Virus record (IMG/VR): IMGVR_UViG_2563366997_000003
DNA from: a virus
Taxonomy: Duplodnaviria; Heunggongvirae; Uroviricota; Caudoviricetes
Direction: 5' to 3' (one strand)
Length of the DNA: 10,830 nucleotides
This document shows, one piece after another, positions 3,001 through 6,000 of this stretch. Position 1 is the first letter of the stretch, and each line of letters starts with the position of its first letter. The position numbers are program-made.

Positions 3001-6000
3001 ATTAATTTCTGAGGCCGCCCCTCATCTGAACGCCTATCAGGGCACAATTAACGGTAATGAATTTGCCGCAATTGTCCCGGTTATTCCTGGTCATATCGGT
3101 GGGCGTGAAACCAATATTGTTAGCGCAAAAGCGTTACACAAAGCGTTGGGCGTGGGAAAAGACTTCTCTACATGGATCACTGATCGCATCTCTGAATATG
3201 ACTTCACCATTGGGCACGATTACTCAGTCCATAAAACTATTTCCCCAAATTTGGGGAAAAGCCCGAATGGCGCGGCTTACAGCAAGATTAAGCACTCTGG
3301 CAGACCCGGCAAAGACTATCTGTTAAGTGTCGGAATGGCGAAAGAACTGGCAATGATCGAACGCACCGAACAGGGCCGCGCTATCCGCCGTTATTTCATC
3401 CAGTGCGAGGAAGAATTACAGCGTAGCGTGCCTGAAATCGCCGCCCGCTATCGTCGCCAGCTAAAAGCCCGTATCAGTGCCGCAAACAACTTTAAGCCGA
3501 TGTGCGATGCGCTGAATATGGCCCGTGCCGAGATGGGTAAAACGACGCAGCAACACCACTACACAAACGAGAGCAATATGATTTCTCGTATCGTTCTTGG
3601 TGGGCTAACTGCTAAGCAGTGGGCGCGGATAAATGGCTATTCTGGCGAACCTCGCGACCATATGAACGCAGAACAGCTTGAGCACCTCTCATATCTCGAA
3701 AGCACCAATATCACGTTAATTGATATGGGCATGGAATATGAGCAGCGCAAAGGAGAACTCACCCGCCTGTCGCAACGCTGGCTCGCTAAACGTCTGGAGG
3801 TAAACCATGCGTAACCATAATCCGATGCCGGGAAGCCGTTACAAGGATTCGCACGGGGCTGTAGTGACCGTACAGCGCGTCGAGCATAACCGAGTGACCT
3901 TTTACCGCGAGGGCTATCAGTCGCCATGTGTTCAGCCTTTGGAGAGATTCGTTAATGAGTTCGTGGAGGTGCGCCGTGATACTGAATGAACCTGCCGCCC
4001 AGAAAGAAGCCTTTAATCTGGCTAACCTGTTAACAAATGTTAACCCTTACAACCTTATAAAACCAAAGGTCGCGAACGGCTGTCTGTTATCAATTGTTAT
4101 GGTTAATGACTTAGCAAAACTTAGCCTGAACCTCACAAAACCTGACATCCACGCACGGGGAATGACGACAAATGATGACATTTTAAACCAAGAAATAATC
4201 ACCTCTAAAAAGCTGATTGTGGGGAATAAATTCCCCCTGCTGGCTGGTGGTATGAACTGGATTGCTACCGTTGTGAACCGTTCCACATCGACTTTCGCGA
4301 CAAATACGCGTGCGCTGGAAGATTTATTAGGGGTCGTTACGCGAGAAGGTGAGTATTCGGAGTCCATAAAAAAGGGCTTGCCGACTATCGCCAACACGGT
4401 TTATGGTTATAGCGCACCAGCAAAATCTGGCGCCGGGCGTGGAAACCCGAACACACTAAGGGCGACACAGACGCCGAAAGCGTCTTTTTTTGTGTCCGAT
4501 CACTACGCACATCAAATCAGCGGCCTCGTCCGTACTGTATCTATGGTGGCGTTAGTGGGGCTACGTTCGCGTAGGCCGGTTTCCTTTGTGTCCGGTATTT
4601 CCACCCCTGCTAACGTCACCGCCATTTCAGAGCGTGGAAACTCAGGCGGTGACTCCTTAAACACAAAGGAGGCTGCCATAATGGCTACTACCCCTACCCA
4701 AAAACCATCATTTATCTGGTTAATCGCAGCAGTTCGCCGCGATATGCCGACAATTACCGCCAAAATTCACCATATCGCCGCAGAGACTGAGCAGGAAGCC
4801 CGCCGCATTCTGGCGCGGGATCACGTTTGCTTTTTTGCCGGACGTATTCGCACAGGGGGCGCACATGCTTAATTACTTCCGTGTTGCAGGATGCGCCACC
4901 GCCCGGAGCGGCGAATTAGTCGAGTTCGTTTATATCGTTGACGCCCGCAGCGCGATCAGCGCCAAAGCTGAGGCGCTAAATCAGGCCAGAAATGAACGCC
5001 TTTCCCACATCCAGATTACCCGCGTTCGTGAGGTGGCGGCATGAGCATGTATGACGATTTAGTGTCCTGCAAATTTGATGGTTGTACACCTGATGATCTG
5101 AACGGAATTGAGAGCTGCGCCAGTGATGCCGTGGATGATTTAATGCTGGGCGTAAGTGCCATTGGTAGCCTCATGTTCTGGGCGGCTGGTAGCGATGGCT
5201 ACCCGGAGGAAAGCGCTAAGGCTGATATGTACAGATTAGGCGCAATGCTGGGACATATCGGAGAAGTTGCGCGGGCGCTGAACGATAGCGCTGCAAACGC
5301 CGCATTCTTGCGCTCAATCAGTGAAAAAGAAGCCAAAGGGAGGGCGGGCAAATGAACATAACTACCATCTATCGCCACCCGGCAGAGCTGGAAGCCGAAG
5401 CGATGTTATCCCGCGAGCAGGCTTACCCGGATGATTTTACGCTGGCAGACCGAACGGCAGAACGCATGACCCGCGCCCGCAATGGGCTGGCTCACGTTAT
5501 GACCGAATTAGCCCCGCACATGGACGCAGAGCAAACAGCAGCCGTCCAGTGCTGGCTGATGAAGGTTTTGGCTATTGTCGATGCCACCCTGATTGATGCG
5601 GAGGGCAGCGCATGAGCAACGCACCGACCATTAAATCGGGAAATGCCGACTTATTACACGCCGAAGCCACACCGCACGGCGTCAATATCATGACCCGCAA
5701 TGATGCCGGGGGATATGAGCAGGTTGCTCTTATCAGCTACGAGAGCGCCGTGAACGGCCTTGACGCCGGAGAGTACGACGATAAGCCAGATATCGGATAC
5801 GCCATTCATTTTGCCGTTGCTGATGGCGGGGCGCGTGGCTGGTTCGACTTCACCGCGCAGCATAACGTCACTATGTGGCGCTGGCTGATTGCTGCGACGT
5901 TCATTTCTGAGATGAAGCGCGAAAACGGCACAACCACGGTAACTGAGTCTGACGGCACTTCATCGCAGGTGGCGATTTACTCCAATGGCACGGCGGGGAT

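What the first reader, a model, noticed from the sequence alone, without database searches (positions are those of the whole stretch)
4470..4680. Structured leader before the Icd-like gene: terminator-like hairpin, UUCG-loop hairpin, and a repeated element complementary to the icd Shine-Dalgarno
Seen in sequence: (1) hairpin + T7 at 4470-4491; (2) direct repeat TTTGTGTCCG at 4489-4498 and 4585-4594; (3) the second copy region TCCTTTGTGT (4582-4591) is the exact reverse complement of ACACAAAGGA (4661-4670), which overlaps the AAGGAGG SD of the Icd-like gene; (4) a CTACG-UUCG-CGTAG hairpin at 4561-4574. In P1 (c4 RNA, upstream of icd) and P4 (CI RNA), immunity is exerted by a small processed RNA that base-pairs with complementary sites on the same transcript, one of which covers the icd ribosome-binding site (established knowledge). 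The layout here is consistent with an analogous RNA-based immunity or translational-control element.
Basis: partly seen in the sequence, partly recalled or inferred. Interest (0 to 1): 0.58.

Follow-up and report, generated by a model that had tools for sequence, protein, structure and literature searches.

The report
P4-type RNA immunity region (IsrK/C4/icd)
The flagged stretch is a textbook RNA-based "immunity" switch of a P4-like satellite island in E. coli: a small antisense RNA (C4/CI) masks the ribosome-binding site of a cell-division-inhibitor gene. It is real and well supported, but it belongs to an already known kind.

Summary
They belong to two curated RNA families. The hairpin plus T7 run is the terminator of an IsrK/seqA RNA (4414-4490, Rfam 71 bits). 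The UUCG hairpin and the "second repeat copy" are hairpin 1 and the hairpin-2 loop of one C4/CI antisense RNA (4539-4626, 81 bits).

The loop (b') pairs with the icd Shine-Dalgarno region (b2).

Across 27 loci, including phage P4, these boxes covary. The a pairing is 7/7 Watson-Crick in every locus (6 types), and the b pairing has about 12 types.

The direct repeat is real but coincidental. Its first copy is the U-tract plus the arm of an outer helix.

The long frame 3976-4872 does not refute the RNA reading. It is the counterpart of P4 eta, with icd as the counterpart of kil nested inside it. That frame is open in all 27 P4-like loci, and spacer lengths differ only by multiples of 3. It is closed in the P1-like phage D6.

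The layout is P4-type rather than P1-type. This is a new member of a known kind, of modest interest.

The parts
3976..4872 (+). eta-like long ORF (298 aa; GTG start preceded by GGAGG at 3965-3969). It spans the internal promoter, IsrK, C4, the targets and icd.
   Evidence: PGAP annotates it as one CDS. Its phase is open in all 27 P4-like loci and closed in the P1-like phage D6. The P4 counterpart eta (199 aa, starting ATGATGATG) has the same layout.
4378..4407 (+). Putative constitutive internal promoter (PLE-like): TTGCCG, 18-nt spacer, TATGGT, placing +1 at about 4414.
   Evidence: Read from the sequence and conserved in relatives. It falls below the consensus-scan threshold at 8 of 12 matches, so one search did not list it. 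Inferred.
4414..4490 (+). IsrK/seqA-like RNA: hairpin 1 (4414-4433), hairpin 2 (4434-4449) and an intrinsic terminator.
   Evidence: Rfam RF01394, 71.2 bits, E = 5e-14, full length. Helices supported by covariation.
4439..4445 (+). a1 box, GTGGAAA, in the loop of IsrK hairpin 2. It is complementary to a'.
   Evidence: 7/7 Watson-Crick pairs in all 27 loci, with 6 sequence types.
4451..4462 (+). b1 box, ACACA-CT-AAGGG. It is an imperfect complement of the C4 loop: 6 of 9 pairs in register, or 9 pairs with a 2-nt bulge.
   Evidence: Relatives show 7-9 of 9 pairs. The window is the weakest of the 27.
4470..4491 (+). Intrinsic terminator of IsrK (GACGC-CGAAA-GCGTC plus U7).
   Evidence: Terminator scan and Rfam isrK 3' hairpin.
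4464..4496 (+). Outer helix GACACA (4464-4469) with TGTGTC (4491-4496), enclosing the terminator.
   Evidence: 11 of 11 pairs in the window. Relatives show arm changes on both sides, such as TGCCGAC/GTCGGCA and GCGCACA/TGTGCGC. The register varies, so this was not scored formally.
4539..4626 (+). C4/CI antisense RNA: a 17-bp basal stem, hairpin 1 and hairpin 2. The mature RNA is probably about 4544-4624.
   Evidence: Rfam RF01695, 81.1 bits, E = 4e-15. MFE -38.9 kcal/mol, z = -4.75, identical to the consensus fold. 21 of the 45 isrK+C4 pairs scored together show compensatory changes.
4561..4574 (+). C4 hairpin 1, CTACG-UUCG-CGTAG.
   Evidence: 5 of 5 pairs have double changes and 100% of cells are paired.
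4580..4591 (+). b': the 12-nt loop of C4 hairpin 2 (UUUCCUUUGUGU). It pairs with b2 and b1.
4598..4604 (+). a' : UUUCCAC in the single-stranded junction of C4. It pairs with a1 and a2.
4622..4624 (+). CCA immediately 3' of the basal stem (tRNA-like 3' end).
   Evidence: Two columns are invariant and one is at least 90% conserved in alignment A2. Its role as an RNase P determinant is inferred from the P1/P7 c4 literature, recalled from memory.
4634..4640 (+). a2 box, GTGGAAA, 8 nt after C4.
   Evidence: 7/7 pairs in all 27 loci.
4645..4653 (+). GGCGGTGAC, complementary to the 3' strand of the C4 basal stem (4615-4623). In unprocessed RNA this forms an alternative hairpin with a2 in its loop.
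   Evidence: 96.6% of cells paired and 5 of 9 pairs with double changes. It appears in the MFE fold of 4606-4690.
4661..4672 (+). b2 box, ACACAAAGGAGG. It contains the icd Shine-Dalgarno sequence (GGAGG at 4668-4672).
   Evidence: 12 of 12 pairs with b' in the window. At least 9 pairs, nearly all contiguous, in all but three closely related loci (L002, L004, L006), which pair in a 1-nt shifted register. About 12 specificity types.
4681..4872 (+). icd/kil gene (63 aa), the first gene translated after C4.
   Evidence: NCBIfam NF033153 covers aa 11-58, 73 bits. 41% identity to P4 Kil, E = 7e-9. Most homologues are 62-66 aa.

Best explanation
This is the immunity region of a roughly 12-kb P4-like satellite island lying between yicC and yicG, built like that of phage P4.

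Quiescent state. A constitutive promoter inside a long ORF (about 4378-4407) transcribes IsrK/seqA (4414-4490). Many transcripts stop at its terminator. Read-through transcripts are processed to an approximately 80-nt C4/CI RNA (4539-4626). C4 pairs through its hairpin-2 loop (b') and its junction (a') with a2 (4634-4640) and b2 (4661-4672) on transcripts of the same region. This buries the GGAGG of icd/kil. Without icd translation, transcription ends prematurely, by Rho-dependent polarity as in P1 and P4. The downstream small genes and the P4-family primase therefore stay silent, and the island stays quiescent and immune.

IsrK carries the same two boxes (a1, b1). It is a second target, or a mimic of the target.

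Activated state. When the upstream operon (alpA to DUF4222) is switched on, ribosomes translate the eta-like ORF 3976-4872 straight through the terminator, C4 and the target sites. That transcript then escapes immunity.

Shown here: family membership, structure, three-way covariation of the boxes, overlap with the SD, the nested-ORF architecture and its frame conservation, and homology to P4.

Inferred from P1, P4 and Gifsy-1 experiments: the promoter, RNA processing, Rho termination, and the direction of IsrK's effect.
For: - Rfam hits: C4 81.1 bits and isrK 71.2 bits in the window. The same pair sits in the same order in P4, in 26 of 32 Icd-linked loci and in phage D6.
- Fold: the C4 MFE structure equals the family consensus, z = -4.75.
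- Intrinsic helices: 97.5% of cells paired, 21 of 45 pairs with double changes.
- a'/a2 plus b'/b2: 89.9% paired, 14 of 19 pairs with double changes, covariation 0.615 against 0.153 for shuffles and at most 0.16 for slid controls.
- a1/a' plus b1/b': 95.2% paired, covariation 0.789.
- The a boxes are 7/7 Watson-Crick in all 27 loci.
- The P4 sequence has the same leader (GTGAGAACTCCGGCGATAGC...TTCACAGGAGGCTGCCATCATGGCT), a 65-aa Kil homologous to the window's Icd, and eta (199 aa) starting upstream of seqA.
- The eta-phase frame is open in 27 of 27 P4-like loci.
- The isrK-to-C4 distance takes the values 98, 101, 125, 128, 140 and 185, all equal to 2 mod 3 (coordinates).
- D6, which is P1-like, has a distance of 123 and stops in that phase.
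- Gene context: AlpA, AntA and DUF4222 genes have overlapping stops and starts upstream, and a P4-family primase lies downstream.
- Literature: PMC3632133 (IsrK/C4 = seqA/CI), PMC10111431 (eta/kil summary; C4 and isrK hits in Gram-negative PICIs), PMC4825925 (an approximately 80-nt processed RNA downstream of IsrK).
Against: - There are no expression data for this element. The promoter matches only 8 of 12 consensus positions and the scan did not call it.
- b1 is degenerate in this element, at 6 of 9 pairs in register, so the IsrK arm may work differently or weakly here.
- No Rho-dependent terminator can be located by sequence.
- The island lacks recognisable sid, psu, delta or capsid genes. 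Its status as a helper-dependent satellite is therefore assumed.
- The loci used for covariation are related to one another, so shuffle controls overstate independence. The slid controls and the number of distinct box types answer this objection.
Confidence: 0.82

Rival explanations
1. Pure P1-type immI control. C4 only represses icd translation, and thereby a downstream antirepressor. The long ORF is an annotation artefact with no role.
For: C4 and Icd-like family hits. b2 overlaps the SD. P1-like phage D6 has isrK-C4-icd-ant with no long ORF.
Against: No ant gene follows icd here; the AntA/B homologue lies upstream at 2981-3814. The long frame is open in 27 of 27 P4-like loci, and spacer lengths differ only by multiples of 3 (with coordinates). 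It has a GGAGG-N6-GTG start overlapping the upstream gene. The leader and Kil are closer to P4.
Confidence: 0.1
2. Gifsy-1 IsrK-type activator. The short IsrK RNA is the main regulator. Acting in trans, it sequesters the C4-like region and opens the downstream ribosome-binding site, switching the operon on rather than keeping it off.
For: Full-length isrK hit with terminator. IsrK carries a1/b1, which are complementary to C4. The mechanism was shown experimentally for Gifsy-1 (PMC4825925).
Against: In Gifsy-1 the translated ORF is a 45-aa uORF coupled to a Rha-type antirepressor. Here it is a 298-aa eta-like ORF ending in icd. b1 is weakened in this element. The P4 layout and homology fit better. 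This rival can also coexist with the main model, as a derepression route.
Confidence: 0.25
3. Protein-only reading. The region 4405-4704 encodes an 'Ash' protein domain fused to Icd, and the hairpins are incidental.
For: Pfam PF10554 Phage_ASH hit (E = 4e-23) and PHROG 'repressor' families cover this stretch. PGAP calls one 298-aa CDS. The frame is conserved.
Against: Against the near-identical island L037, substitutions in this stretch fall evenly on codon positions (27/30/34), while the base pairing is kept. The helices and the inter-box pairings covary, which changes the amino acids freely. The Icd HMM covers only the last 63 aa, and most homologues are 62-66 aa.
Confidence: 0.03
4. Chance hairpins and repeats in a leader, with no function.
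For: Each single 10-mer match is only a 1% event in shuffles. The direct repeat is indeed coincidental.
Against: Two Rfam hits lie far above their gathering scores, and covariation is seen across 27 loci.
Confidence: 0.01

Closest known systems
Phage-plasmid P4 immunity region (PLE, seqA, CI RNA, seqC, with kil nested in eta; the alpha primase operon)
   Same: Same order and spacing: isrK/seqA, then C4/CI, then a2/b2 (seqC) with GGAGGCTGCCAT.ATGGCT, then a Kil/Icd gene of 63-65 aa starting 142 nt after the C4 start. The long ORF begins upstream of the internal promoter. An AlpA/Vis homologue lies upstream and a P4-family primase downstream.
   Different: - The a and b boxes have different specificity: GTGGAAA and ACACAAAGG here, against GTGAGAA and TTCACAGG in P4.
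- The isrK-C4 spacer is shorter (48 nt against 107).
- The eta-like ORF is longer (298 aa against 199), with an unrelated AT-rich N-terminal part.
- Extra genes (AntA/B, DUF4222) lie between alpA and eta.
- No sid, psu or delta genes are present.
- b1 is imperfect.
Phage P1/P7 immI operon (P51, a1b1, c4, a2b2, icd, ant)
   Same: A C4-family antisense RNA is flanked by two pairs of complementary boxes. The downstream pair covers the icd ribosome-binding site, and an Icd-like protein follows. The P1-like phage D6 shows the same RNA order.
   Different: No antirepressor gene follows or overlaps icd here. The RNAs lie inside a conserved long ORF, which the P1-like phage D6 lacks. The controlled operon leads to a primase.
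Gifsy-1 isrK-orf45-anrP locus (Salmonella)
   Same: IsrK with its terminator, followed by a processed approximately 80-nt C4-like RNA (STnc1160). The region is also translated, and its nucleotide sequence is conserved while its amino-acid sequence is not (PMC4825925).
   Different: There, a 45-codon uORF is translationally coupled to a Rha-type antirepressor in a lambdoid prophage. Here there is an eta-like ORF, icd, and a satellite replication operon.
Gram-negative PICIs and helper-embedded PICIs with C4/isrK in their 'Bro zone'
   Same: Four-zone layout: int-alpA, then Bro (AntA, Phage_ASH), then a replication primase. Rfam C4 and isrK hits have already been reported in such islands (PMC10111431).
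   Different: This island (yicC-yicG site, about 12.4 kb) shows no late or packaging genes in the annotated stretch. I found no description of it individually in the papers I searched.

Membership tests
Rfam RF01695 C4 antisense RNA (P1 c4 / P4 CI) | Covariance-model score at or above the gathering threshold (45 bits) over the full model | tested here: met
   81.1 bits, model positions 1-87 of 87, E = 4e-15.
Rfam RF01695 C4 antisense RNA (P1 c4 / P4 CI) | Long basal stem enclosing two hairpins, with the hairpin-2 loop and the 3' junction single-stranded | tested here: met
   The MFE fold is identical to the consensus, z = -4.75. The C4 helices are 99.5-100% paired, with compensatory changes.
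Rfam RF01695 C4 antisense RNA (P1 c4 / P4 CI) | Single-stranded boxes complementary to sites upstream and downstream on the same transcript | tested here: met
   a1/a'/a2 and b1/b'/b2 are present and covary. b1 is imperfect in the window.
Rfam RF01695 C4 antisense RNA (P1 c4 / P4 CI) | Mature RNA of about 77-80 nt produced by processing (RNase P) of a longer transcript | not testable with these tools
   Only the conserved CCA at 4622-4624 after the acceptor-like stem is seen.
Rfam RF01394 isrK / P4 seqA | Covariance-model score at or above 50 bits, with two 5' hairpins and an intrinsic terminator | tested here: met
   71.2 bits, full length. Terminator scan hit.
Rfam RF01394 isrK / P4 seqA | Hfq binding, and accumulation as a discrete sRNA | not testable with these tools
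   No expression data.
P4-type immunity region | The first gene after CI is kil (about 65 aa), and its SD lies inside the downstream target (seqC) | tested here: met
   Icd/Kil homologue of 63 aa, 41% identical to P4 Kil. GGAGG lies inside b2.
P4-type immunity region | kil is the in-frame 3' end of a longer ORF (eta) that starts upstream of the internal promoter | tested here: met
   ORF 3976-4872 with GGAGG-N6-GTG. The same holds in P4. The frame is conserved in 27 of 27 loci.
P4-type immunity region | An AlpA/Vis-type gene lies upstream in the same orientation, and a P4 alpha-type primase lies downstream in the same operon | tested here: met
   Phage_AlpA at 2334-2537. Zn-ribbon, Toprim and D5_N primase domains at 6525-9023.
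P4-type immunity region | Immunity acts by premature (Rho-dependent) termination, which eta translation relieves | not testable with these tools
   Inferred from Forti 1999 via PMC10111431. Supported indirectly by the frame conservation.
P4-like satellite (helper exploitation) | sid, psu, delta or epsilon helper-manipulation genes | tested here: not met
   None is annotated between int and yicG, and none was hit among the window ORFs scanned. The element shares P4's immunity and replication modules only.
P1 immI operon | The antirepressor gene ant lies immediately downstream of, or overlapping, icd and is co-regulated with it | tested here: not met
   Small hypothetical genes follow icd, and the AntA/B homologue lies upstream at 2981-3814. 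Compare D6, where ant does follow icd.
Gifsy-1 isrK-orf45-anrP | A short uORF over the C4-like RNA, translationally coupled to a Rha/AnrP antirepressor | tested here: not met
   Here the ORF is 298 aa and ends in icd, with no Rha gene downstream.

The most novel reading that the evidence does not exclude
The eta-like ORF may be selected only for ribosome transit, not for its protein. Three observations fit this.
- Its frame is kept across two RNA genes in every P4-like locus. Indels occur only in multiples of 3, and the frame stays open even where icd has slipped into another frame.
- Its codons evolve without any position bias.
- The whole promoter-IsrK-C4-target cassette is swapped as a unit between otherwise 98-99% identical islands, giving a combinatorial a/b 'immunity code' for satellites.

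A corollary is that Pfam Phage_ASH, NCBI 'ash family protein' and several PHROG 'repressor' families are largely in-frame translations of RNA genes.
Probability: 0.5. Interest if true: 0.4.

Novelty: new member of a known kind. Interest (0 to 1): 0.25.

Why it matters
It corrects the public annotation. In RefSeq this stretch is a single 298-aa "Icd-like" CDS with no RNA genes annotated, and related loci carry "ash family protein" calls.

It identifies the on/off switch of a small E. coli island.

It gives a clean natural data set for how RNA-based immunity specificities diversify and are exchanged among phage satellites: 6 a-types and about 12 b-types, with targets co-changing at three sites.

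It opens no new mechanism. P1, P4 and Gifsy-1 work already explains the parts.

Tried and rejected
- Direct repeat. I asked whether the repeat (4489-4498 and 4585-4594) marks a second C4-related site. Rejected: in relatives the first copy is invariant (U-tract plus GTGTCG) while the C4 loop changes. It is instead the 3' arm of an outer helix around the terminator.
- Long ORF as artefact. I first assumed the long ORF was an annotation artefact, because the Icd HMM covers only the last 63 aa and most homologues are 62-66 aa. The stop-codon maps overturned this.
- Frame kept open by RNA conservation alone. Rejected: the P1-like phage D6 keeps both RNAs yet has stops in that phase.
- Consensus promoter scan. 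It did not list the presumed internal promoter.
- Literature. One search term was too short and failed. The search for kil/eta/timm returned noise. Forti 1999 is not held in the library, so I relied on the summary in PMC10111431 and on the P4 sequence itself.
- Unconstrained duplex energies. Cognate pairs are favoured over cross pairs (b': -20.2 against -12.5 kcal/mol), but the method is too crude to predict heteroimmunity.
- Six Icd-like loci (Tatumella, Rosenbergiella, Erwinia and others) have no C4 or isrK hit even at E <= 0.01. Icd does not always travel with C4.
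Full report
**Observation.**
- The hairpin GACGC-CGAAA-GCGTC plus T7 lies at 4470-4491. The terminator scan also finds it.
- TTTGTGTCCG occurs at 4489-4498 and 4585-4594.
- TCCTTTGTGT (4582-4591) is the exact reverse complement of ACACAAAGGA (4661-4670). That site overlaps AAGGAGG, 8 nt upstream of the ATG at 4681.
- The CTACG-TTCG-CGTAG hairpin lies at 4561-4574.
- In 2000 dinucleotide shuffles of 4470-4680, a direct repeat of at least 10 nt appears in 0.85% and an inverted match of at least 10 nt in 1.35%. 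These are suggestive, but not decisive alone.

**What the pieces are.** A scan of the window against Rfam at gathering thresholds gives three hits.
- C4 antisense RNA (RF01695) at 4539-4626: 81.1 bits against a threshold of 45.
- isrK (RF01394) at 4414-4490: 71.2 bits against 50.
- int-alpA RNA at 1289-1355.

The UUCG hairpin is hairpin 1 of C4. The "second repeat copy" is the 12-nt loop of C4 hairpin 2. The C4 minimum-free-energy fold (-38.9 kcal/mol, z = -4.75) is identical to the family consensus.

**Extra boxes.** A search for complements of C4 on the same strand finds two further sites besides ACACAAAGGA (b2).
- GTGGAAA occurs twice, at 4439-4445 inside IsrK (a1) and at 4634-4640 just 3' of C4 (a2). 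Both are complementary to UUUCCAC (a', 4598-4604) in the single-stranded junction of C4.
- GGCGGTGAC (4645-4653) is complementary to the 3' strand of the C4 basal stem.

IsrK also carries an imperfect b1 (ACACA-CT-AAGGG, 4451-4462). This is the a1b1 / c4 / a2b2 arrangement known from P1, called seqA / CI / seqC in P4. Rfam's own c4-a1b1 model overlaps the 5' part of isrK in two related loci.

**Comparative test.** I used an alignment of Icd-like proteins to fetch 32 loci from Enterobacterales genomes.
- 26 of them have C4 138-145 nt upstream of icd and isrK upstream of C4.
- P4 itself has both RNAs, and so does the P1-like phage D6.

I then scored a 27-sequence alignment that includes P4 (A2).
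- The a'/a2 pairing is 7/7 Watson-Crick in every sequence, with six different box sequences. The same holds for a1/a'.
- b'/b2 keeps at least 9 pairs, nearly all contiguous, in all but three closely related loci (L002, L004, L006), which pair in a register shifted by 1 nt. About twelve specificities are seen.
- For a'/a2 plus b'/b2, 89.9% of cells are paired and 14 of 19 pairs have changes on both sides. The covariation score is 0.615, against 0.153 for shuffles and at most 0.16 when the partner is slid.
- For a1/a' plus b1/b', 95.2% of cells are paired and the score is 0.789.
- The intrinsic helices of IsrK and C4 are 97.5% paired, with 21 of 45 pairs compensatory.
- The alternative hairpin (C4 3' strand with 4645-4653, a2 in its loop) is 96.6% paired, with 5 of 9 pairs compensatory.
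- The window's own b1 is the weakest of the 27, at 6 of 9 pairs in register.

**The direct repeat does not pass this test.** In relatives the post-terminator sequence stays TTTTTTTGTGTCG whatever the C4 loop is. Its GTGTC pairs with GACAC just 5' of the terminator, forming an outer helix. In some relatives both arms change together, for example TGCCGAC/GTCGGCA and GCGCACA/TGTGCGC. The repeat is a coincidence of this element's b' type.

**The long ORF.** PGAP annotates 3976-4872 as one 298-aa "Icd-like" protein.
- The Icd HMM covers only residues 246-293, which is the 63-aa ORF 4681-4872.
- Most homologues in the protein collection are 62-66 aa.
- The Pfam Phage_ASH hit, and PHROG families labelled repressor or regulator, cover residues that translate nt 4405-4704. 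That is exactly IsrK, C4 and the leader.

The frame is not an accident, however.
- The reading phase that contains it is free of stops from at least 227 nt upstream of C4 to at least 331 nt downstream. This holds in all 26 island loci and the window, and in P4.
- It holds even in the nine loci where icd sits in another phase.
- The distance from isrK start to C4 start takes six values (98, 101, 125, 128, 140, 185), all equal to 2 mod 3 (coordinates).
- Phage D6, which is P1-like, has a distance of 123 and has stops in that phase at -173, -17 and +121. RNA conservation alone therefore does not keep the frame open.

P4 explains this.
- On its minus strand, the 65-aa Kil (MATTLTPSHPEF...) starts at GGAGGCTGCCATCATGGCT, 142 nt after the C4 start.
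- Kil is 41% identical to the window's Icd (E = 7e-9).
- Kil is the end of a 199-aa ORF that opens with ATGATGATG upstream of seqA. This ORF is eta.
- According to Forti et al. 1999, as summarised in PMC10111431, Kil is translated from the constitutive internal promoter and is under immunity control. Full-length Eta is translated only from the upstream late promoter, and its translation prevents the immunity-specific termination.

The window ORF has a GGAGG-N6-GTG start overlapping the stop of the upstream DUF4222 gene. It follows a run of genes with overlapping stops and starts that begins at alpA.

**Context.** The window is 100% identical to an island of about 12.4 kb between yicC and yicG in four E. 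coli genomes. The gene order is:
- integrase
- int-alpA RNA
- AlpA
- AntA/B
- DUF4222
- eta/icd
- small ORFs
- P4-family primase
- PerC

No sid, psu, delta or capsid genes are annotated. The AntA/B homologue lies upstream of icd, not downstream of it. The P1 immI layout is therefore not met, whereas D6 does have icd followed by ant.

**Mechanism.** My best reading is a P4-type immunity switch.
- An internal promoter (TTGCCG, 18 nt, TATGGT at 4378-4407) is inferred. It is conserved in relatives but falls below the scan threshold.
- It produces IsrK and, by read-through and processing, C4.
- C4 pairs with a2/b2 and hides the icd SD.
- Untranslated RNA is terminated, so the primase operon stays off.
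- Transcription from the alpA operon is coupled to eta translation and escapes this control.
- IsrK (a1/b1) is a second target or a decoy. P4 genetics and Gifsy-1 experiments point in different directions on this (PMC3632133, PMC4825925). Here b1 is weakened.
- Processing, Rho dependence and the direction of IsrK's effect are inferred, not shown.

**A side result.** I compared the window with a near-identical island in strain LF4-1 (L037).
- The flanks (3976-4377 and 4716-4872) are 98-99% identical.
- The cassette at about 4384-4715 is only about 65% identical and carries different a and b boxes.
- Its indels are -24, -3 and +6 nt.
- Substitutions are spread 27/30/34 over the three codon positions.

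The immunity cassette has been exchanged as a unit. The frame was kept, but the amino-acid sequence was not.

**Comparison and novelty.** The IsrK-C4 system is curated in Rfam. It has been equated with P4 seqA/CI (PMC3632133) and has already been reported in Gram-negative PICIs (PMC10111431). This locus is a new, mis-annotated member of a known kind. Interest is modest. The most novel defensible angle is that the eta-like ORF is conserved only for translation through it, together with the exchange of immunity-specificity cassettes as units.

Noticed in passing
window 4384-4715 vs L037 (E. coli LF4-1): Immunity-cassette swap. The flanks are 98-99% identical, but the promoter-spacer/IsrK/C4/target/icd-start cassette is about 65% identical and has different a/b boxes. 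Indels are -24, -3 and +6 nt. Substitutions fall 27/30/34 on codon positions 1/2/3.
   Followed up: partly
window 4405-4704: Pfam PF10554 Phage_ASH and PHROGs 6928, 821, 995 and 3960 (labelled repressor or regulator) match the in-frame translation of IsrK, C4 and the leader. NCBI 'ash family protein' calls in related loci cover the same stretch. These protein families appear to be largely built on RNA genes lying inside eta-like ORFs.
   Followed up: partly
window 1289-1355: Rfam int-alpA RNA (RF02996, 62 bits) lies between the integrase gene and the next ORF. The same motif occurs in several related loci.
   Followed up: no
L011, L012, L014, L018, L019, L022, L025, L026, L027: In nine related loci icd is out of phase with the eta-like frame (C4-to-icd distance 138, 141 or 144 instead of 142 or 145). 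The eta-phase ORF still stays open across the whole icd gene and in most of them runs on well beyond it, up to about +1200.
   Followed up: partly
L021, L024, L028, L029, L031, L033: Six Icd-like genes (Tatumella, Rosenbergiella, Erwinia and a MAG) have no C4 or isrK match even at E <= 0.01. Icd-like genes therefore also occur without this RNA control.
   Followed up: partly
L035 (phage D6) 2027-2106: A second, sub-threshold C4-like match (40.2 bits) lies about 450 nt upstream of the isrK/C4/icd/ant module of phage D6.
   Followed up: no
window 4464-4496: An outer helix (GACACA with TGTGTC) brackets the IsrK terminator hairpin and loops out the U-tract. It can form only in read-through RNA, and its role (processing or stability) is unknown.
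   Followed up: partly
window 3990-4340: The N-terminal part of the eta-like ORF is AT-rich and matches no protein family. It contains GTTAACAAATGTTAAC at about 4031-4046. A 116-aa ORF (4047-4397) lies on the opposite strand.
   Followed up: no
L016 and L021: Contigs labelled Chryseobacterium sp. and Paenochrobactrum (MAG) carry enterobacterial-type icd islands. L016 has IsrK and C4 with the same b' type as the window. This probably reflects contamination or mis-binning.
   Followed up: no
window 10549-10830: A PerC-family transcriptional activator gene lies at the distal end of the island. The island ends before yicG, with a pRiA4b ORF-3 family gene.
   Followed up: no
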